Below, in pieces: positions 1 to 10,091 of a DNA stretch of 64,000 nt. The notes beneath the pieces were generated by a model. That model saw only the letters and a list, made by a program, of their open reading frames with translations, ran no database searches and was not told the DNA's origin. Source of the stretch: a virus; the IMG/VR virus record IMGVR_UViG_2802429139_000001, one strand, 5' to 3'. A program made the translations under genes and the position numbers. Position 1 is the first letter of the stretch. Every line of letters starts with the position of its first letter.

Positions 1-39
1 TATCTCACGTTGACCAGGCGGTCGCCAAAGTAGACGATC

Positions 40-77
40 AGAACTGAGACCTGTTGCTATACAGCAGGTCTCAGTTC
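40..77. terminator. Perfect inverted repeat AGAACTGAGACCTG...CAGGTCTCAGTTC, hairpin downstream of minus gene 178..375
   Basis: 14-bp stem arms read directly from sequence. Confidence 0.5.
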
Positions 78-177
78 CATTCTTGTCAGCGCGCCCAAAC
101 GCCCAACGCGATGACGACTAGAACGCCGAGAACGGCTGCGCGCCAGAGAGTCGTACACATCGCCGCGTAGGGGTCAG

Positions 178-375
178 TCACGCCCCCGCCACCTCCGCGA
201 GTGTTCCCGTGATGGCGGTCGCCAGCTCGGCGGCGTCGCCGTAGTCCAGCTCGACCGACTGAAAATCGCCGTCCCGGTCCAGGACCTTGACGGTGATCTT
301 CTGCGCCTTGGCCCAATGCTGCACATCCAGCGTGTCGCCATCCGGGTCAGTTGCAGTGAAGACCTGTTCCGACAT
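178..375 (-). CDS. Hypothetical small acidic protein (65 aa)
   Basis: ATG preceded by perfect RBS GAAGGAGG; overlapping ORF 86..316 is Arg/Gly-rich wrong frame. Confidence 0.6.
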   Translation of the reverse strand: MSEQVFTATDPDGDTLDVQHWAKAQKITVKVLDRDGDFQSVELDYGDAAELATAITGTLAEVAGA

Positions 376-581
376 AGTGAGCCTCCTTCATAGCGTGACG
401 GTAGACCACTCTACTACCAAAACTGTACAAGGTCTATGCCCACCGTTTGACGTAGCGTTGCCTTGTACAACAACTTCGGTGTGTTCATATTGGTAGACTT
501 GTCTACCATCACTGCTACACTGATCATCGACACCGCAAGGTGTCAATCACAACGACGACAAGCGGAAACAAGGAGGTGAAC
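376..581. promoter_or_regulatory. Divergent intergenic region with operator-like palindromes (TGGTAGACTTGTCTACCA at 491..508; GGTAGACCACTCTACTACCAA at 400..420; CTGTACAAGG/CCTTGTACAA inverted pair)
   Basis: Palindromes read from sequence between divergently oriented ORFs. Confidence 0.5.
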
Positions 582-767
582 ATGGTTCAACCGCCTGACG
601 GGATGAGCCGAGATGAGGCGTTAGCAGCGCTGCGCCAACGGCGCAGAGTTGTCACCCAGAAGATTGCAAATCGCAAACGCGAGCTTCGTGCTCTCGTGGC
701 TGAAGTGCAATCCCTGGAGACAGAGCTAGCCCACATCGAACAAGGCGAAGATCTGCTGTCTAGCTAG
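582..767 (+). CDS. Hypothetical coiled-coil protein (62 aa)
   Basis: RBS AAGGAGG 6 nt upstream of ATG at 582; heptad-like Arg/Glu/Leu-rich sequence; leader motif CAATCACAACGACGACA upstream. Confidence 0.55.
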   Translation: MVQPPDGMSRDEALAALRQRRRVVTQKIANRKRELRALVAEVQSLETELAHIEQGEDLLSS

Positions 768-775
768 TCAGCAGG

Positions 776-812
776 TCACCAGGGGGTCGGGAGCGACCCT
801 CTCGGCCCCCTG
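776..812 (+). terminator. GC-rich hairpin CCAGGGGG...CCCCCTGG followed by T-rich tract
   Basis: Inverted repeat read from sequence after stop of 582..767. Confidence 0.4.
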
Positions 813-1030
813 GTCTCGTCTCGCTTGTCCTAGAGGTGATTTCGTTGGTCGCGATCACGGCAAGGACGCGAGCTAGCGCGCTAGGTGATCATTGGGCGCG
901 CTCCGTTTCGACTGGCTCACGTCACCAACACAACGCACCCCCGCCCGTTCTTTCTATACCGGGTGGCGGGCGGGGGTGTTCAAACATCATCAACAACAAC
1001 CTCTTTCGCAAGGTGCGGAAGGTGCATGCA

Positions 1031-2470
1031 ATGAAAGCGAGAAAACCAATGAACGATACCGACATCATCACCGGTGATGAGGTTACTTTTCACAACAACC
1101 CGCAGATCGTTCTGCCGGAAGGCATTACATACGGCCGCGCCAAGGAGATCCTGGAGCGCATGCAGGATGAGGCCGAGTCGGTGCAGCAGACCAGTCGCAC
1201 CTACCAGTTTCGCCCGTTTGACGGCGCGGTCGCCACCTCTCGGGTGATGAAGCGCATGTTCGGTATCACCATCGGCGCTCCGAGCGGTGGCGGCTTCTTC
1301 TCCCCGCCCGAGCCTCCGGAAACCCGCACGGTGCAGATTTCGGCGACGGAGACTCTGGAGGTTCCGTGGGGCAACGTCTACCTTCCCAGCGTGGACAACA
1401 AGACCGTCGTCCAGGTCGGCGGAAGGCGCGACCGCGACAACGGAATTGTCACGCACGTCAACGTCATCAGTGCGAAGAAGAACGCCAAGATCGCGCGCGA
1501 GTTCCTGGATGCGATCGGTGAGGAGCTGAAAACCAACTCGATCTATCGTGGCAAGGCGATCGTAGGCACCGAGGAGCCGGAGTTCCTGAACCTCGCGACC
1601 ATCGTACCGAGTGAGATCGTCTTCTCCGATGAAGTGATGAGCACACTGGAAGGCACTCTGTGGTTAGTGATTCGGCACCGTAAGGCGCTCAAGGGCGAGG
1701 GTGTGCGCATCAAGCGTGCGCTGCTGTTGGAGGGTCCGTACGGCACCGGGAAGACCTCGGCCGGTCAGCTCACCGCGCTGGAGGCCGTCCAGAACGGTTG
1801 GACGTTCATCGCTGCACGACCGGGCGATGACATCAACGATGTGCTCCGCACGGCCAAGCTGTACCAGCCCGCGGTGGTCTTCATCGAGGATGTGGACAAC
1901 CAGACATCGACCAGCGACGTGGATCAGGTGTCCAAGCTGCTGGAGACCTTCGATGGTGTGACATCCAAGGGGTCCGAGGTCGCACTTCTGATGACTACCA
2001 ACCACTTTGAGCGCATCCATAAGGGTATGCTCCGCCCAGGTCGCATCGATGCGGTGGTGGAGGTCGCGGCACTGGATCGCAACGGTGTTGAGCGTCTAAT
2101 CAAGGCCGTCGTCGCGTCCGAGCGTCTTGCCGAGGACGTGGACTATGACAAGGTCTATGAGGCGATGACCATCCAGCTTGGTGACGGTGTGGTGGTCGGC
2201 TTCTATCCAGCGTTCGTGCGCGAGGCGCTGGAGCGCGCCAAGACGTTCGCCATCGGTCGGCTCAATGGTGGAACCAACTACAAGCTGGACACCACCGATC
2301 TGGTCGGCGCGGCGGTCTCGCTGCACAACCAGCTCAAGGCCCAGTTTGAGGCCGAAGAGGGTATCGCCAGGCCGACGATCGACGATCAGATCCAGGGTCT
2401 CATGAGCGACTTCGAGATCCGGGATTACGACAACGATTACGTCGGTACCTTGAAGCTCAAGAAGAGCTGA
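1031..2470 (+). CDS. Classical-clade AAA+ ATPase with ~230-aa N-terminal domain of unknown function
   Basis: Walker A GPYGTGKT, Walker B VVFIEDVD, second region of homology MTTNHFERIHKGMLRPGRID; start trimmed to ATG 1031 with GGAAGG RBS. Confidence 0.85.
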   Translation: MKARKPMNDTDIITGDEVTFHNNPQIVLPEGITYGRAKEILERMQDEAESVQQTSRTYQFRPFDGAVATSRVMKRMFGITIGAPSGGGFFSPPEPPETRTVQISATETLEVPWGNVYLPSVDNKTVVQVGGRRDRDNGIVTHVNVISAKKNAKIAREFLDAIGEELKTNSIYRGKAIVGTEEPEFLNLATIVPSEIVFSDEVMSTLEGTLWLVIRHRKALKGEGVRIKRALLLEGPYGTGKTSAGQLTALEAVQNGWTFIAARPGDDINDVLRTAKLYQPAVVFIEDVDNQTSTSDVDQVSKLLETFDGVTSKGSEVALLMTTNHFERIHKGMLRPGRIDAVVEVAALDRNGVERLIKAVVASERLAEDVDYDKVYEAMTIQLGDGVVVGFYPAFVREALERAKTFAIGRLNGGTNYKLDTTDLVGAAVSLHNQLKAQFEAEEGIARPTIDDQIQGLMSDFEIRDYDNDYVGTLKLKKS

Positions 2471-2491
2471 TCCGCACCGCAGATACAAAGA

Positions 2492-2527
2492 AGCACCCCC
2501 GAGAGCGAATCTCGGGGGTGCTTCCGT
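2492..2527. terminator. Hairpin GAAGCACCCCCGAG...CTCGGGGGTGCTTC after AAA ATPase gene
   Basis: 14-bp perfect inverted repeat directly after stop codon. Confidence 0.6.
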
Positions 2528-2840
2528 ATCAACACATTTCGCCACTGTGGCGCATCTAGCGCCTGATCATTCTCCCGAATGACACACCGAGCAGAACACC
2601 GAACCCGACCAGTACGCCCAGGGTTGTCAGCAGGGTTCGCGTGGTCATCTCTTCGGCCTCGATCTCCTCCAGGTCGTCACACTCGGGACACCGGCACTTC
2701 TCCCGGTAGTGCGTGCAGTCGCAGGGGCCATCCAGCTCATGGCCAGCGCACGCGCCGGCGCGGTGGTGCGGGTCGCCAAGGTCGTGGTTTTCCAGGTCGT
2801 GGCCCGCACGCGCAGATGTCGGTGAGACCCAGATACTCGG

Positions 2841-3209
2841 TCATCGCTTGCCTCTCCAGCGGCGCACCGTCATGCGGTCGACGCGTGCTGCGCGCTGTGC
2901 GCCATGCTCGCTCAATCCGTCTTCCATCGACAGCAGCGCCACGACGCGCGCGACGGCCATGCCCATGTCGGCGCGGCTCCGCGCGCGCTCCAGCGCTTGC
3001 CCCGCGTCTTCTAGTGTCAGCTCTTCCGCGAGGTACCGCGCCGCGGCCATCATCGCGGCGTCGCGCATCGGATACTCGGCAGGGTCGGCGTAGCGTTCGA
3101 CCAGATCGTTGAACGTGTCCGCGAAACGCACCGACGCTGCGCGAGACAGCTTGAAACCGTTCTCGCGTAGCCATCCGGTCGCGTTGGTGGGAGCTGTTGC
3201 CATGGTCAT
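2841..3209 (-). CDS. Hypothetical protein (122 aa)
   Basis: GGAGGA RBS before ATG at 3209; GC3-rich frame; ends at TGA 2841..2843, with an open coding-like continuation downstream. Confidence 0.6.
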   Translation of the reverse strand: MTMATAPTNATGWLRENGFKLSRAASVRFADTFNDLVERYADPAEYPMRDAAMMAAARYLAEELTLEDAGQALERARSRADMGMAVARVVALLSMEDGLSEHGAQRAARVDRMTVRRWRGKR

Positions 3210-3266
3210 GAAGTGTCCTCCAGTTGTCACCTTCTAGTCTAGTGACGCGGCCGGTAGTCCAAGCTA

Positions 3267-4064
3267 CTAGCGCGGCAAACCTAGAGGGTCTACCGAATCA
3301 ATCGGACGGTCCATCGCCGCGGTTAGGCCAGCGCGCGCGCCCTGTTTGAATCCGTCGTCACTGAACTGATCCACCATCGTGTTGACCGCATCCGGATACG
3401 CATCTCGCATCGCGTCGCGAGCGCGCTCACGGTCCGACTTGTACAGCGCGACCACGCCAGCCTTGTTGGCCGCATCACCTTCCTGCTGTTTGATGCGCTC
3501 AGCGATCGACGCTGCGAACCCAATGAGCCAGGATTGACGGTAGACGTGCAGCGATTGCGGCGCTCGCTTATCGCGCGTCATCTGCACCAGGTGGTCCAAC
3601 CGCTCTGCCCGATTCATGGCCGCCCACTCATCCACGGTGGCCGTACGGAACGTCTCTCGTTTCGGCATCTCCACTTTGGCGACCAAGCGTGTCGCCTGTG
3701 GTTGCAATATCTCCCAGAGCATCCTCAGGCGTTCGACATGGTGAGACATGCCGAACACGTGCACGAGCGGCATGTTATTGAGACCAACGGTCTTGCAGTG
3801 CAGCGCCTCCGCGAGGATGGACAGCATGTGTTTCTGCTCGGCCTGATAGGGACCGCGCACCAGTAGCAGCGTGTCGATGGCGTTCGGGATGTCGCTGATG
3901 TCGAGACCGCGCTGGTGTGCGCGCACAGTCGCCAGATCGATGCCGTGTTTGGCGAGCAGCGCGAAGGCGCGTTCCTGAAATGCCTCCTCCTCGGGCGTCC
4001 CAGTCACATCCTCGGCCTGTCGCAACAGCTTTGCGATCTTGTCAACGATCCTGTCGTCAGTCAT
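3267..4064 (-). CDS. DUF2786-like protein (265 aa)
   Basis: N-terminal KIAKLLRQAEDVTGTPEEEAFQERAFALLAKHGIDL resembles DUF2786 signature. Confidence 0.65.
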   Translation of the reverse strand: MTDDRIVDKIAKLLRQAEDVTGTPEEEAFQERAFALLAKHGIDLATVRAHQRGLDISDIPNAIDTLLLVRGPYQAEQKHMLSILAEALHCKTVGLNNMPLVHVFGMSHHVERLRMLWEILQPQATRLVAKVEMPKRETFRTATVDEWAAMNRAERLDHLVQMTRDKRAPQSLHVYRQSWLIGFAASIAERIKQQEGDAANKAGVVALYKSDRERARDAMRDAYPDAVNTMVDQFSDDGFKQGARAGLTAAMDRPIDSVDPLGLPR

Positions 4065-4184
4065 GGGTGTCCCCTGATGTCGCGTTGTCTTGGTAGTTCA
4101 TTCTACCAAAATACTAGTAGACCTCTCTACCATTGTGCTACGGTCGATTGGTCTACCAAACAACGGACGAAAGGGCTGCTGCTC
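4065..4184. promoter_or_regulatory. Divergent promoter/operator region with three palindromes (TTGGTAGTTCATTCTACCAA 4090..4108; GTAGACCTCTCTAC 4116..4134; TTGGTCTACCAA 4149..4160)
   Basis: Half-site TTGGTAGAC / GTCTACCAA recurs here and at 400..509. Confidence 0.55.
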
Positions 4185-4388
4185 ATGGCCAAGAGGGTTT
4201 GGATCGATAACGGCGGAATGGTCACCTGCGACGAGCACTCGGGTATGTACATGCGTTTCGCCATCAAGGAGCGGCCCAGCGCGAAGCGGCACACCACACC
4301 TCTTGGTGTGTACGTCGCAGATGAGTCCGGAAAGTACGAGTGCGAAACTTGCGTCCCCTTCCACACGAGGAACCCAAATGCCCAGTAA
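4185..4388 (+). CDS. Small Zn-ribbon-like protein (67 aa; CDEH...CETC)
   Basis: AAAGGG RBS; stop overlaps start of next gene by 11 nt (translational coupling). Confidence 0.55.
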   Translation: MAKRVWIDNGGMVTCDEHSGMYMRFAIKERPSAKRHTTPLGVYVADESGKYECETCVPFHTRNPNAQ

Positions 4389-5400
4389 ATGGTCCAACGT
4401 GCTCCGCGGTGTCGCCTTTGGCGACGCGTGGGGCTACCGCAATGAATTCAGGTCGTACGCTCAGCTCACCCAGCACGGTCTCATGGGTCCTGCGCTGCCT
4501 GAGAAGCTGATCATCAGTGACGACACTCAGATGACGCTCGCGCTCGCGCGCGCTCTGCGCGGTGCGAGCGACAAGACTGACAGTGAGATCCGTGCCGACG
4601 TGCTTACGGAGTGGGTCAACTGGTACGGCGACCCTGACAACAACCGCGCACCTGGCAATACCTGCATGCGCGCGATCGACGCCATCAAGCAAGGTGCGCA
4701 CTGGCTAGACGCTGTGGTAGCCGACTCTGATGGTTGCGGAACCGTGATGCGTGTCAGCCCAGCGGCGCTCGTGAACAGTGAATTCCATAGCTGGCAAGGC
4801 ATTTCGACCTGGCAGGCTCTCACAACGCATGGATCACCGACAGGCGCGGCGGCATCACTGGTGGGTGCTGCCCTGATTCGGCTAGCACCCATGCCTGGCG
4901 ACACCGTGAACTACGCGCTGGACCTCACGCTTGAGGCTGTCGGCGATCCTGATGATCTGCTGCTGCATGGACTCGACGAGTGGATCGTCGAGAATGGCGA
5001 CTACTACGGTCCGGCTTATCAAGAGGGTGCACGTCGATTCATCACGCGCGGAATGCTGAATCTCGCGCACACGTTGGTAGACGCGGACATTGCGCTGAGA
5101 AACATTCGCGCGAAGGATCTAGATCCCTGGGACCTAGATCCGTGCGAGCTGGCAGGTCCGGGATGGCGTGCGCACCATGCGCTTTCAACCGCGCTGCTGT
5201 GCGTCGACCTTTTCCCGGAAGATCCGATCTCCGCGCTACGTCGCGCGACGGTCACCAGTGGAGACAGTGACTCGATCGCTGCGGTCGCTGGGGCCGTCCT
5301 CGGTGCGATCCATCCTGACCCCTGGCCTGACGGTTGGTTCGATCGACTGGAAACGCGCTACCAGAAAGAGATTTCAGAGGCAGAAGGGTTTGGGTTCTGA
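4378..5400 (+). CDS. ADP-ribosylglycohydrolase (DraG/ARH family)
   Basis: GVAFGDAWG, SDDTQM, C-terminal TSGDSDSIAAVAGAVLGA signatures of the ARH family. Confidence 0.85.
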   Translation: MPSKWSNVLRGVAFGDAWGYRNEFRSYAQLTQHGLMGPALPEKLIISDDTQMTLALARALRGASDKTDSEIRADVLTEWVNWYGDPDNNRAPGNTCMRAIDAIKQGAHWLDAVVADSDGCGTVMRVSPAALVNSEFHSWQGISTWQALTTHGSPTGAAASLVGAALIRLAPMPGDTVNYALDLTLEAVGDPDDLLLHGLDEWIVENGDYYGPAYQEGARRFITRGMLNLAHTLVDADIALRNIRAKDLDPWDLDPCELAGPGWRAHHALSTALLCVDLFPEDPISALRRATVTSGDSDSIAAVAGAVLGAIHPDPWPDGWFDRLETRYQKEISEAEGFGF

Positions 5401-5678: not shown

Positions 5679-5753
5679 GCATTGAGAATGAGCTACTGAG
5701 CAAGACGGCCAAACAGATTCACGACGGCCAGATCACAAGACCGTAGAACACAA

Positions 5754-5803
5754 AAGAAAACGCCCCCAACCGCAACTGAATGCGGTTGGGGGCGTTTCTC
5801 TTT
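5754..5803. terminator. Bidirectional intrinsic terminator (AAAA-CGCCCCCAACCGCA...TGCGGTTGGGGGCG-TTTCTCTTT)
   Basis: 14-bp stem flanked by A-run and T-run between convergent genes. Confidence 0.7.
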
Positions 5804-7824: not shown

Positions 7825-8139
7825 GCGTTCCTGCACATACGGATTGAGCGCCACCACCAGATCGGCAGCAGTCTCGAAGTTCGTGACGAATGGCCGCGAT
7901 GCGACGAACGCGCCAGCATTCCAGAACCCGATGTGTGTCGATGTCCCGACGTACGCCGCGAACGTGACCACCGAGGTTGACTCGCCGTTGTCGGCTGTCG
8001 CCCACGTCGGCGTTTTCCGCACGACGCCTGGCATCTCGTTGGCTCCACCGGCACCAGGCTCGGCGTTGTGCAGTGAGACCTCATCGAAGTAGCCAACCAT
8101 TGTGGCGCAAATGGCATTCAGAACAGCTTCGTCAATCAT
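7819..8139 (-). CDS. Hypothetical protein (106 aa)
   Basis: Operon position, start/stop overlaps. Confidence 0.45.
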   Translation of the reverse strand: MIDEAVLNAICATMVGYFDEVSLHNAEPGAGGANEMPGVVRKTPTWATADNGESTSVVTFAAYVGTSTHIGFWNAGAFVASRPFVTNFETAADLVVALNPYVQERA

Positions 8140-9014: not shown

Positions 9015-10091
9015 CTATGCCGCAAGTGCTTTGCGGCCATATGCGTTCATCGAGTCGATGGCGTGCCGGACAGAGCTACGCCCTGAGCCGTCCATCACGT
9101 CATCAATCCCGTAGGTGCCGTGATCGCGCGCACCGGATGCCGCGAATCGGATCGCGATACCAGCGGCGCGTGCGGCGTCGATCAGGTTCAGCGGGTTGCC
9201 CAACAGCTCGGTAATCTGCTCAACCAGACCACCCTTCCCGGTCAATGCCGCCACCACGTCTGTGGCCATCTGGAATGGGTCGTGAATCTGGAGACGTGTC
9301 AGCACGTCATAGACGGCTGTAATGTCGTCACCAGCATCACCTTTCGGCACGGCTGTATACATATCGCCAGCGTGCGCGTAATCGTGCCAGGTGGACGGCG
9401 TGCCTTCGATTCGTCTCGGGGAGATGCCGCGGCCCGGTAGCGTGTCACCGGGCCATGCGTGGTTCTCTTCGCGGGACGGATTGCCGAAGGTGTAGCCGCC
9501 GGCCAGATCCGCGAGGCGATGCGACAACGAGCCACCGTGGATGACCTCACGCAACAGTAGCGACGCCGCCTCGGCACCCTGCGAGTAGCCGCCGAGCATG
9601 AACTTCCCTGGCGTGGCGGCGATCCGCTTGATGCCAGCGCGTACGGCGACCTCGACTGATTCCTGGTAAGACAGCGACGTGATACCCGTGACTGGTCCCC
9701 CGGGGATGGGGCCGAAGCTGGCCGGGTAGTCGATCGGTACCCAGGTGAAGAACCCGGGGTCAAGGCCGCGCGCCACGTCGGCCTGGAAACCCCAGTCCGC
9801 AGCAGACCAGGTACCAGCGAACGTGTACACGGTAATGCGCTGCCACGGCAGCGGTTTGAGCCCATAAAGCCGCATCCGAGTCGCGTAGTTGGCGATACCG
9901 ACCGCCGGCAGTCCAACATTCTTCTGGAACTGGATCAGCACACGCTCAGTTAGCTCATCGAAGTAGTCGCCGTGGGTCATGCCCATGTCGCGCGCCCAGC
10001 GGAATTTCTCAGTGAGGTAGTACCGGACTCGTTCAACCTCGGGCCCCTGATCGCCCTCGCCGTAGCCGACGAACTGACCGTTAACGATCAC
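9015..10091 (-). CDS. lysB: Lysin B, mycolylarabinogalactan esterase
   Basis: GYSQG serine-esterase motif; position after lysin A. Confidence 0.85.
   Translation of the reverse strand: MIVNGQFVGYGEGDQGPEVERVRYYLTEKFRWARDMGMTHGDYFDELTERVLIQFQKNVGLPAVGIANYATRMRLYGLKPLPWQRITVYTFAGTWSAADWGFQADVARGLDPGFFTWVPIDYPASFGPIPGGPVTGITSLSYQESVEVAVRAGIKRIAATPGKFMLGGYSQGAEAASLLLREVIHGGSLSHRLADLAGGYTFGNPSREENHAWPGDTLPGRGISPRRIEGTPSTWHDYAHAGDMYTAVPKGDAGDDITAVYDVLTRLQIHDPFQMATDVVAALTGKGGLVEQITELLGNPLNLIDAARAAGIAIRFAASGARDHGTYGIDDVMDGSGRSSVRHAIDSMNAYGRKALAA

What the first reader, a model, noticed from the sequence alone, without database searches (positions are those of the whole stretch)
776..2527. AAA+ ATPase with novel N-terminal domain preceded by two GC-rich hairpins and a 12-bp palindrome
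The ATPase 1031..2470 has canonical Walker A/B and second region of homology (RPGRID) of the classical AAA clade, the clade that includes the FtsH/Cdc48/ARC ATPases. Its first ~230 residues match nothing I recognise. Upstream lie two strong stem-loops (CCAGGGGG...CCCCCTGG at 776..812 and CACCCCCGCCCG...CGGGCGGGGGTG at about 937..985) and the palindrome CTAGCGCGCTAG (about 866..877) flanked by GATCAC/GTGATC. This looks like an attenuator or operator architecture rather than a plain promoter. Single-gene AAA ATPases in prophage variable regions are recurrent defense candidates.
Basis: partly seen in the sequence, partly recalled or inferred. Interest (0 to 1): 0.6.

Follow-up and report, generated by a model that had tools for sequence, protein, structure and literature searches.

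The report
Phage AAA ATPase with structured leader
This is the already annotated "AAA-ATPase" of a Mycobacterium abscessus prophage. It belongs to a large, uncharacterised family found almost entirely in phages, it is built like the Bcs1/YjoB chaperones, and it sits behind a conserved hairpin-rich spacer; nothing here points to an anti-phage defence gene.

Summary
There is a classical-clade AAA+ gene ending at 2470, two very stable hairpins (778-814 and 935-979) and a 12-bp palindrome, which lies at 873-884 rather than 866-877.

The window is prophage prophiFSIL01-1 (cluster MabR, McProf relatives), and the gene is gp90 "AAA-ATPase". GenBank's start at 845 is not supported, because frame-shifting indels show that 845-1030 is non-coding. 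The conserved start is ATG 1049, and ATG 1031 is in frame in this phage only.

The N-domain is not an orphan. It defines PHROG 10440, with about 1,250 50%-identity clusters, nearly all about 500 aa with the same architecture. Members occur in temperate actinophages and in virulent N4-like phages, PhiW-14 and jumbo phages. The predicted fold, the inverted "ED" Walker B and the non-aromatic pore loop resemble Bcs1/YjoB chambered chaperones.

The gene follows a conserved 61-aa ORF. Both are reported as expressed in lysogeny. The likely regulated promoter, carrying TCTAC-dyad operators, lies upstream of the small ORF. Both hairpins are structurally conserved, with compensatory changes, but neither has a U-tract. 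The palindrome is not conserved. There is no match to a known defence family and no fixed partner gene.

Function is unknown. The most likely role is a protein-remodelling chaperone. Interest is moderate to low.

The parts
400..415 (.). Operator-like dyad GGTAGACCACTCTACT, copy 1 upstream of the small ORF
   Evidence: One search found 9 matches against 1.7 expected, with 0 of 100 shuffles reaching 9. The dyad is conserved in place in McProf and FSQJ01.
492..507 (.). Perfect dyad GGTAGACTTGTCTACC, copy 2. It lies immediately upstream of a conserved TANNNT hexamer (TACACT, 516-521), which is a candidate -10 element of the operon promoter.
   Evidence: The dyad and the TANNNT hexamer are kept in all 5 prophages even where the flanking DNA differs. 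The promoter assignment is an inference.
582..767 (+). Small ORF gp91: 61 aa, coiled-coil-like, with an AGGAGG Shine-Dalgarno sequence at 571-576
   Evidence: Annotated in BK061311. It is conserved in all relatives, including an unannotated copy in FSQJ01-1. Family matches are weak only.
778..814 (+). Hairpin 1: a 16-bp stem starting 11 nt after the small ORF stop codon, with no U-tract
   Evidence: z -4.45. FSQJ01 keeps a 14-bp hairpin here with G-C to U-A changes (sequence, read by eye).
836..905 (+). Conserved non-coding core. It contains GATCAC (853-858), the palindrome CTAGCGCGCTAG (873-884) and GTGATC (885-890).
   Evidence: It is 61/65 identical to the divergent FSQJ01. It is not coding. 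It has no Rfam match and no sigma-70-like promoter. Its RNA fold has z -0.86. The GATCAC/GTGATC pairing is kept in 5 of 6 variants, with one compensatory change.
935..979 (+). Hairpin 2: a 15-bp G+C-rich stem, ending 52 nt before ATG 1031 and 70 nt before the conserved ATG 1049, with no U-tract
   Evidence: z -5.26. McProf and FVLQ01 carry a compensatory indel. FSQJ01 has a hairpin of different sequence at the same place (-35.1 kcal/mol, z -5.7). Four pairs show changes on both sides.
1017..1022 (+). Shine-Dalgarno sequence GGAAGG, 8 nt before ATG 1031
   Evidence: Read from the sequence. It is conserved as GGAAGG or GAAAGG in 5 of 6 variants.
1031..2470 (+). AAA+ ATPase gene (gp90): 479 aa from ATG 1031. 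The start conserved in all relatives is ATG 1049 (473 aa).
   Evidence: The PHROG 10440 profile aligns from residue 15. ATG 1031 is out of frame in McProf and FVLQ01, where it opens a 6-codon uORF ending in an ATGA overlap.
1031..1624 (+). N-terminal domain: an alpha/beta core at residues about 34-169, carrying the family motifs DGA, VPWG and NSIYRGKA
1733..1759 (+). Walker A motif, GPYGTGKTS
   Evidence: Sequence; invariant across the family.
1874..1897 (+). Walker B motif VVFIEDVD, with the inverted 'ED' order
   Evidence: E286 and D287 are invariant in 120 homologues and in distant virulent-phage members. PMC9565160 reports ED as exceptional for Bcs1 and YjoB.
2033..2050 (+). Second region of homology, RPGRID, containing the arginine fingers
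   Evidence: Sequence; R335, P336, G337, R338 and D340 are invariant.
2489..2525 (.). Hairpin 3, lying between the convergent AAA gene and the leftward genes. A terminator-like T-rich tail is present on the minus strand only.
   Evidence: z -8.43.
4092..4157 (.). Three further copies of the same dyad, in the divergent promoter region next to the HTH-protein operon and the ADP-ribosylglycohydrolase operon
   Evidence: The same arrangement is seen in McProf and FSQJ01.

Best explanation
gp90 is a soluble, single-module classical-clade AAA+ ATPase of a large family found almost entirely in phages (PHROG 10440). Its build resembles the Bcs1/YjoB chaperones: an alpha/beta N-terminal cap domain, one AAA module with an inverted ED Walker B, and a pore loop without an aromatic residue.

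The inferred mechanism is an ATP-driven ring that binds and remodels a folded protein client, rather than threading it through a narrow pore. The client is unknown.

In the MabR prophages it is the second gene of a two-gene unit: a 61-aa coiled-coil ORF, then a structured spacer of about 280 nt, then the AAA gene. This unit is expressed in lysogens. It is most likely driven from a repressible promoter upstream of the small ORF, whose TCTAC-dyad operators are shared with the neighbouring HTH and ADP-ribosylglycohydrolase operons.

The two G+C-rich hairpins are conserved RNA structures inside this transcript. They most likely set the ratio of small-ORF to AAA expression through transcript end protection, processing or partial termination. 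They do not form a classical leader-peptide attenuator.

Shown here: gene identity, the corrected start, family breadth, structural conservation of the hairpins, and the operator repeats. Inferred: ring assembly, action on folded clients, co-transcription, and which protein binds the operators.
For: Identity and clade.

Start codon: the 845-1030 stretch carries frame-shifting indels, and the upstream 'extensions' of the five prophages translate to unrelated peptides. ATG 1049 is conserved in all of them.

Family: PHROG 10440 at E 2.6e-75 over residues 15-459. More than 1,100 homologues were found. The N-domain profile finds 1,255 clusters, nearly all 460-545 aa. Full-length members occur in Gordonia Ronaldovirus, N4-like Schitoviridae, PhiW-14, Stenotrophomonas phages and jumbo phages.

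Bcs1/YjoB-like build: the AF2 model has pLDDT 91.6. The top Foldseek PDB hits are Bcs1 and YjoB over about 420-450 aligned columns. The N-domain on its own also has Bcs1 as its top hit. The ED Walker B is invariant and is described as a Bcs1/YjoB peculiarity (PMC9565160). Pore loop 1 is [KR]-P-G and sits next to a 3-residue deletion relative to Cdc48.

Expression: McProf gp91 (the AAA gene) and gp92 (the small ORF) are listed among the genes expressed in lysogeny, and the AAA-ATPase is shared by all MabR prophages (PMC9434293).

Operators.

Hairpins: 94.6% of cells are paired against 38-56% in the slid controls, and 5 pairs show compensatory changes. FSQJ01 has a substitute hairpin of different sequence.

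No sigma-70-like promoter was found between the hairpins.
Against: - By sequence the AAA module is closer to Cdc48, PAN and FtsH than to Bcs1.
- The N-domain has no sequence match in the PDB.
- The structural match of the N-domain to Bcs1 is weak (E about 3e-3, TM about 0.3) and is interleaved with SRPBCC/Bet v 1 folds.
- The oligomeric state and the existence of a chamber were not modelled.
- Co-transcription of the small ORF and the AAA gene is inferred. The RNA-seq figure itself could not be inspected.
- The conserved core at 836-905 could hide a non-sigma-70 promoter.
- Nothing indicates what the client protein is.
Confidence: 0.5

Rival explanations
1. The AAA ATPase is a prophage-encoded anti-phage defence or superinfection-exclusion protein that is expressed in the lysogen.
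For: It is expressed in lysogeny and lies in the lysogeny-expressed block near attR, beside a polymorphic toxin-immunity cassette. In Gordonia Ronaldovirus it sits in a reverse-oriented island between the tail assembly chaperone and the tape measure genes, a typical moron position. It is a stand-alone gene with no fixed partner.
Against: PADLOC gives only weak P-loop-level IetA and TRIP13 hits. The gene is core to the MabR cluster, not variable. Full-length family members are common in virulent phages, within early or replication modules. Only about 9 full-length relatives were confirmed in a pattern-based scan of 185,579 species-representative genomes, and a scan of that kind can miss divergent members.
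Confidence: 0.15
2. The spacer from hairpin 1 through the core to hairpin 2 is a genuine transcription attenuator or riboswitch-like leader. In this model it switches AAA expression on or off by alternative RNA pairings or by a bound factor.
For: Both hairpins are structurally conserved with compensatory changes. GATCAC (853-858) can pair either with GTGAT upstream or with GTGATC downstream, and the downstream pairing shows G-U-tolerant variation and one compensatory change. The core is 94% conserved in a divergent relative. McProf and FVLQ01 have a 6-codon uORF overlapping the start codon.
Against: Neither hairpin is followed by a U-tract, and mycobacterial RNA polymerase requires one at intrinsic terminators (PMC3993855). 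There is no Rfam match. The core folds no better than shuffled sequence (z -0.86). The small hairpin that would sequester the Shine-Dalgarno sequence is not significant. The covariation evidence rests on only six sequence variants, and most of it comes from one lineage.
Confidence: 0.25
3. The two genes are separate transcription units. In this model hairpin 1 ends the small-ORF transcript, and the conserved core at 836-905 is the promoter and operator of the AAA gene.
For: The core is strongly conserved and rich in dyad symmetry. Its RNA fold is unremarkable, which fits a DNA-level element.
Against: No sigma-70-like -35/-10 pair was found, and no conserved TANNNT hexamer can be seen on either strand (read). 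The candidate A2 position of 'GATCAT' varies between prophages. The 12-bp palindrome is perfect in only 2 of 6 variants and occurs once in the window. The core does not contain the TCTAC dyad that marks the other regulated promoters.
Confidence: 0.2
4. gp90 is a Cdc48/ARC/PAN-type threading unfoldase that feeds host or phage proteins to a protease.
For: The best sequence matches of the AAA module are Cdc48/VAT/p97, PAN and FtsH. Several database records name homologues as proteasome or FtsH-like.
Confidence: 0.1

Closest known systems
Bacillus subtilis YjoB (PDB 7W42), a soluble Bcs1-like AAA+ chaperone
   Same: Both are single-AAA-module, classical-clade proteins with an N-terminal alpha/beta domain of about 160-200 residues (an antiparallel sheet plus three helices). 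Both have the ED Walker B, and neither has a transmembrane anchor. YjoB is among the top whole-chain Foldseek hits.
   Different: There is no detectable sequence similarity in the N-domain. The phage family is about 70 residues longer and carries its own motifs (DGA, VPWG, NSIYRGKA). YjoB is a cellular protein conserved in Bacillales, whereas this family occurs almost only in phages.
Mitochondrial Bcs1/BCS1L, the heptameric translocase of the folded Rieske protein
   Same: It is the top Foldseek hit both for the full model (E 1.4e-16) and for the N-domain alone (E 2.9e-3). It shares the ED Walker B.
   Different: Bcs1 is membrane-anchored by an N-terminal helix, and the phage protein has none. 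The Pfam BCS1_N model does not match. The rmsd of 8-15 A shows a different arrangement of the two domains. The oligomeric state of the phage protein is unknown.
Cdc48/p97/VAT, PAN/ARC and FtsH ATPase modules
   Same: These are the best sequence matches of residues about 200-377. Walker A, sensor 1 and the second region of homology with two arginines are shared.
   Different: The N-domain fold differs. The aromatic pore-loop residue is missing. Walker B is inverted. The phage protein has a single module and no protease partner.
PHROG 10440, annotated 'AAA-ATPase' in actinobacteriophage records (McProf gp91, Gordonia phage Keelan gp46, Erwinia phage Frozen gp37, PhiW-14 gp235)
   Same: This is the same family over its full length.
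   Different: No difference in kind. No member has an experimentally determined function.

Membership tests
Classical AAA clade (Pfam PF00004) | Walker A motif GxxxxGK[ST] | tested here: met
   GPYGTGKTS at residues 235-243. PF00004 matches at E 3.3e-14, 53.9 bits against a cut-off of 21.2.
Classical AAA clade (Pfam PF00004) | Second region of homology with two arginine fingers | tested here: met
   RPGRID is present, and R335 and R338 are invariant in 120 homologues. It aligns to the Cdc48 second region of homology.
Classical AAA clade (Pfam PF00004) | Canonical hhhhDE Walker B | tested here: not met
   The motif is VVFIED, with the acidic residues in ED order. This is invariant across the family.
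Classical AAA clade (Pfam PF00004) | Aromatic-hydrophobic-Gly pore loop 1 | tested here: not met
   The loop reads A-R-P-G-D-D and sits next to a 3-residue deletion relative to Cdc48. The family consensus is [KR]-P-G.
Bcs1/YjoB-like AAA chaperones | ED instead of DE in Walker B | tested here: met
   The criterion is taken from PMC9565160.
Bcs1/YjoB-like AAA chaperones | Bcs1-type N-terminal alpha/beta domain | tested here: inconclusive
Bcs1/YjoB-like AAA chaperones | AAA module closest in sequence to Bcs1 | tested here: not met
   phmmer against the PDB ranks Cdc48/VAT/p97, FtsH and PAN first. Bcs1 is not in the top 60.
Bcs1/YjoB-like AAA chaperones | Hexameric or heptameric ring with an internal chamber formed by the N-domain ring | not testable with these tools
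   No multimer prediction was available.
Bcs1 proper | N-terminal transmembrane anchor | tested here: not met
   The N-terminus MKARKPMNDTDIITGDEV is hydrophilic, and the AF2 model has no N-terminal helix before residue 34.
Known anti-phage defence proteins (PADLOC-DB v2) | Significant full-length match to a defence-system model | tested here: not met
   The best hit is IetA at E 2.1e-5, covering only residues 194-249 (the P-loop region). NCBIfam IteA scores 18.8 bits against a cut-off of 510.
Intrinsic (Rho-independent) terminator or attenuator | Stable G+C-rich hairpin | tested here: met
Intrinsic (Rho-independent) terminator or attenuator | U-tract of 7-9 nt immediately after the stem | tested here: not met
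   The stems are followed by TCTCGTCTCGC (after 814) and TTCAAACATCA (after 979). The terminator scan reports neither hairpin. The requirement for a U-tract is from PMC3993855.
Intrinsic (Rho-independent) terminator or attenuator | Mutually exclusive alternative structures, or a leader peptide that senses a signal | tested here: inconclusive
   GATCAC could pair on either side. A 6-codon uORF exists in only 2 of 6 variants. No significant anti-terminator structure was found.
Palindromic repressor operator | Dyad symmetry conserved in relatives and/or repeated in the genome | tested here: not met
   This row concerns CTAGCGCGCTAG. It is perfect in 2 of 6 variants and decays asymmetrically. It occurs once in the window. 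In contrast, the GGTAGAC-NN-GTCTACC dyad upstream of the small ORF does meet this criterion.
PHROG 10440 | Full-length profile match | tested here: met
   E 2.6e-75, with residues 15-459 matching profile positions 14-457 of 483.

The most novel reading that the evidence does not exclude
PHROG 10440 could be a viral branch of the Bcs1/YjoB-type chambered AAA+ machines that handle folded proteins. It is spread across temperate actinophages and virulent N4-like, PhiW-14-like and jumbo phages. In MabR prophages it is expressed in lysogeny and co-regulated with an ADP-ribosylglycohydrolase through shared TCTAC-dyad operators. It could then act in counter-defence, in host takeover, or in the McProf-dependent whiB7/aminoglycoside-resistance phenotype. 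The conserved 65-nt core between the two hairpins could be a new cis-regulatory element.
Probability: 0.2. Interest if true: 0.6.

Novelty: new variant of a known kind. Interest (0 to 1): 0.35.

Why it matters
McProf-type prophages are common in clinical M. abscessus. McProf raises whiB7 expression and aminoglycoside resistance in M. chelonae (PMC8191103). The AAA gene and its small upstream ORF are two of only 16 prophage genes reported as expressed in lysogeny (PMC9434293), so they are candidates for that phenotype.

More broadly, a family of more than 1,000 clusters of about 500-aa phage AAA+ proteins with a Bcs1/YjoB-like build has no assigned function. Finding its client would add a new kind of phage-encoded protein-remodelling activity.

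On the practical side, the GenBank start codons of this gene in four of the five MabR records appear to be wrong by 47-68 codons.

Tried and rejected
- Rfam scan of 400-1200 at E up to 10: only noise, with all bit scores far below the gathering thresholds.
- Sigma-70-type promoter scan of 1-4500: nothing between the hairpins or upstream of the AAA gene.
- tRNA scan of the window: none found.
- N-domain profile against PDB sequences: no match below E 1.
- Search for a conserved partner gene in 80 IMG/VR loci, by ORF clustering: the best neighbour family occurs in only 9 of 80 loci. The recurrent families are HNH endonucleases or proteins of unknown function.
- Small ORF against Pfam and PHROGs: only weak coiled-coil-type hits.
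- Hairpin sequestering the Shine-Dalgarno sequence at about 1003-1022: weak and no better than shuffles.
- The shared 'GCACCCCC' motif of hairpins 2 and 3: not over-represented, 2 found against 3 expected.
- The long annotated ORF starting at 845: rejected on frame-shifting indels.
- Literature search for 'Bcs1-like' together with 'bacteriophage': no papers.
- The related mycobacterial prophage L037 (74% identical protein) lacks the two-hairpin leader, so the leader is specific to the MabR cluster and is not a family feature.
Full report
**Origin of the window.** Megablast places window 500-2700 at 100% identity on the reverse strand of Mycobacterium phage prophiFSIL01-1 (BK061311, a prophage of M. 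abscessus). Four relatives match at 79-93% identity: McProf, prophiFSAT01-1, prophiFVLQ01-1 and prophiFSQJ01-1. These form the published cluster MabR. The gene in question is annotated gp90 'AAA-ATPase'. It lies about 4 kb from the attR end. Upstream, towards attR and continuing beyond the start of the window, is a WXG100/Tde-like toxin-immunity cassette. Downstream are an HTH protein, a DUF2786 protein, an ADP-ribosylglycohydrolase and a DnaN clamp.

**Check of the observation.**
- The ORF ends at 2470.
- Pfam AAA matches residues 231-345.
- PDB sequence matches are Cdc48/VAT/p97, PAN and FtsH, over residues 200-377 only.
- Hairpin 1 is at 778-814 and hairpin 2 at 935-979. Each folds at -32.9 kcal/mol, with z-scores of -4.45 and -5.26 and no shuffle folding as well.
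- Together with the hairpin after the gene (2489-2525, z -8.4), these are three of the five strongest 50-nt folds in 64 kb.
- The 12-bp palindrome is at 873-884, about 7 nt from the stated position, and occurs once in the window.

**Gene start.** GenBank starts gp90 at window 845 (541 aa), which would place the palindrome and hairpin 2 inside the coding sequence. Alignment of the five prophages shows several 1-nt indels between 845 and 1030. The in-frame 'extensions' translate to unrelated peptides in different phages. In FSQJ01-1 the gene is annotated from the downstream ATG. The PHROG profile aligns from residue 15 of the 479-aa version. The 845-1030 stretch is therefore non-coding.

ATG 1031 has a good Shine-Dalgarno sequence (GGAAGG, 8 nt upstream). 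In McProf and FVLQ01, however, a 1-nt deletion puts that ATG out of frame. There it opens a 6-codon uORF whose TGA overlaps the next ATG (an ATGA overlap). That next ATG corresponds to window 1049 and is the only start conserved in all variants.

**The protein.** Walker A and the second region of homology are canonical. Walker B is VVFIEDVD, in ED order rather than DE. Pore loop 1 is A-R-P-G, with a 3-residue deletion relative to Cdc48 and no aromatic residue. Both features are invariant in 120 homologues and in members only 32% identical from virulent phages. The YjoB structure paper states that YjoB and Bcs1 'exceptionally' carry ED in Walker B (PMC9565160).

An AlphaFold2 model built on 120 homologues is confident (pLDDT 91.6, pTM 0.86). 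Its best Foldseek PDB hits are Bcs1 in several nucleotide states and B. subtilis YjoB, aligned over about 420-450 columns and ranking ahead of proteasomal and Cdc48 modules.

I therefore say that the protein is built like Bcs1/YjoB. I do not file it as a proven member of that subfamily. It has no N-terminal membrane anchor, so among known proteins it is most like the soluble YjoB.

**Family and distribution.** The protein matches PHROG 10440 (unknown function) at E 2.6e-75 over its full length. A word-indexed search found more than 1,100 homologues, and the best 120 are all about 470-545 aa at 48-91% identity. A profile of the N-domain alone finds 1,255 50%-identity clusters at E up to 1e-3 among 1.84 billion representatives. 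Nearly all have the same length and the domain at the N-terminus.

Annotated phage genomes carrying full-length members include:
- Gordonia Ronaldovirus phages;
- many N4-like Schitoviridae of Erwinia, Salmonella, Klebsiella, Pseudomonas and Escherichia;
- Delftia phage PhiW-14;
- Stenotrophomonas phages;
- two uncultured jumbo phages.

In Keelan the gene sits in a reverse-oriented three-gene island between the tail assembly chaperone and the tape measure genes. In Erwinia phage Frozen it lies among early and nucleotide-metabolism genes. In PhiW-14 it lies between UvsX and the gp41 helicase.

A pattern-based scan of 185,579 species-representative genomes confirmed only about nine full-length relatives, so this count is a lower bound. 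ORF clustering around 80 IMG/VR loci found no recurrent neighbour; the best family occurs in 9 of 80 loci. PADLOC and NCBIfam defence models give only P-loop-level hits.

The gene is thus a self-contained module that both virulent and temperate phages keep. This argues against a dedicated prophage defence role and for a function useful to phages in general. A defence or counter-defence role cannot be excluded.

**Upstream region.** A 61-aa coiled-coil-like ORF (582-767, with a perfect AGGAGG Shine-Dalgarno sequence) precedes the spacer. It is conserved in all relatives, including an unannotated copy in FSQJ01-1. The G3 paper on MabR prophages lists McProf gp91 (the AAA gene) and gp92 (this small ORF) among the 16 genes expressed in lysogeny, and it states that the AAA-ATPase is shared by all MabR genomes (PMC9434293; RNA-seq in PMC8191103).

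The real operator-like architecture lies upstream of the small ORF. The dyad GGTAGAC-NN-GTCTACC occurs at 400-415 and 492-507, and three more times at 4092-4157 in the divergent promoter region beside the HTH and ADP-ribosylglycohydrolase operons. There are 9 matches with up to 3 mismatches against 1.7 expected, and none of 100 shuffles reached 9. The same two-plus-three arrangement is kept in McProf and in the divergent FSQJ01. A conserved TANNNT hexamer (TACACT, 516-521) follows the 492 dyad. The two operons carrying these dyads are the ones reported as lysogenically expressed (gp91/92 and gp85/86 in McProf numbering). I infer a shared regulator, plausibly the adjacent HTH protein, and co-transcription of the small ORF and the AAA gene.

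**The spacer (768-1030).** Across six sequence variants, the two hairpins and the GATCAC/GTGATC helix form standard pairs in 94.6% of cells, against 38-56% when the partner columns are slid. Five pairs change on both sides.
- McProf and FVLQ01 lose one C-G pair from both arms of hairpin 2.
- FSQJ01 replaces hairpin 2 by a different 15-bp G+C-rich hairpin at the same place (-35.1 kcal/mol, z -5.7).
- FSQJ01 keeps hairpin 1 with G-C to U-A changes.

The hairpins are therefore selected as structures. Neither is followed by a U-tract, and mycobacterial RNA polymerase needs one at intrinsic terminators (PMC3993855). They are more likely to protect RNA ends, to mark processing sites, or to act as factor-aided partial stops than to be classical attenuator terminators.

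The 65-nt core between them (836-905) is 94% identical even in FSQJ01, where the flanking non-coding DNA is 45-63% identical. Yet it is not coding, has no Rfam match, has no sigma-70-like promoter, and folds no better than shuffles (z -0.86). The 12-bp palindrome within it is perfect in only 2 of 6 variants and degrades asymmetrically. This core remains unexplained. The whole leader is specific to MabR: a 74%-identical homologue in another mycobacterial prophage lacks it.

The best-supported reading has two parts. First, gp90 is a Bcs1/YjoB-like phage protein-remodelling ATPase of unknown client. Second, it is expressed in lysogens as the distal gene of an operator-controlled two-gene operon, and conserved hairpins in the intercistronic spacer probably tune its level.

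The gene itself is already annotated and published. The new points are the family-level recognition, the corrected start, the operator regulon and the conserved core. Interest is moderate to low.

Noticed in passing
window 400-415, 492-507, 4092-4107, 4116-4131, 4142-4157: The 16-bp dyad GGTAGAC-NN-GTCTACC is repeated in the two divergent promoter regions that flank the AAA/HTH block, and it is conserved in place in McProf and FSQJ01. This looks like the operator set of a local regulon covering the small-ORF/AAA operon and the HTH and ADP-ribosylglycohydrolase operons.
   Followed up: partly
window 845-1030 (GenBank BK061311 gp90; also BK061308, BK061309 and BK061310): The deposited start codons extend the AAA gene by 47-68 codons into non-coding DNA. 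Frame-shifting indels between the prophages show that these extensions are not translated.
   Followed up: yes
L002 about 4880-4903 (McProf) and L004 about 3530-3552 (FVLQ01); equivalent to window 1031-1051: A 6-codon uORF (MKVRNQ* or MRVRNK*) has a TGA that overlaps the conserved AAA start codon as ATGA. In FSIL01, FSAT01 and L013 a 1-nt insertion fuses it in frame to the AAA gene.
   Followed up: partly
L005 3052-3243 (prophiFSQJ01-1): A conserved 63-aa homologue of the small ORF gp91 is present but not annotated. The record instead annotates an overlapping minus-strand 'membrane protein'.
   Followed up: partly
window 528-545: The perfect inverted repeat GACACC-N4-GGTGTC lies in the 5' UTR of the small ORF and is invariant in all five prophages.
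   Followed up: no
window 424-432 and 461-469: A perfect 9-bp inverted repeat, TGTACAAGG / CCTTGTACA, lies between the two dyad operators.
   Followed up: no
L009 about 7900-7945 and 9450-9500 (Gordonia bronchialis prophage): Hairpins resembling tRNA T-arms (GGGTTCGACTCCC and GGGTTCGATTCCC) flank the AAA homologue on both sides. ARAGORN calls no tRNA there.
   Followed up: partly
L018 (ENA metagenome scaffold, 89 kb); L023 and L027 (Saccharimonadales genomes): A 52%-identical homologue sits between RNase J/UDG and PNPase/FtsK. This looks like a chromosomal context rather than a phage one, possibly in Saccharibacteria.
   Followed up: no
L011 539-1807 and 5122-5829: A contig carrying a homologue also encodes an adenylosuccinate-synthetase-like protein and an HD-domain protein. 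This could indicate a phage with 2-aminoadenine (Z-base) DNA.
   Followed up: no
window 41-77: A 16-bp hairpin followed by a T-rich tail is flagged as terminator-like on the + strand. It lies near the start of the window, between converging genes.
   Followed up: no
window 5753-5802: This is the strongest hairpin in the window (-36.6 kcal/mol). It lies between the convergent gp83 and gp82 and is probably a bidirectional terminator.
   Followed up: no
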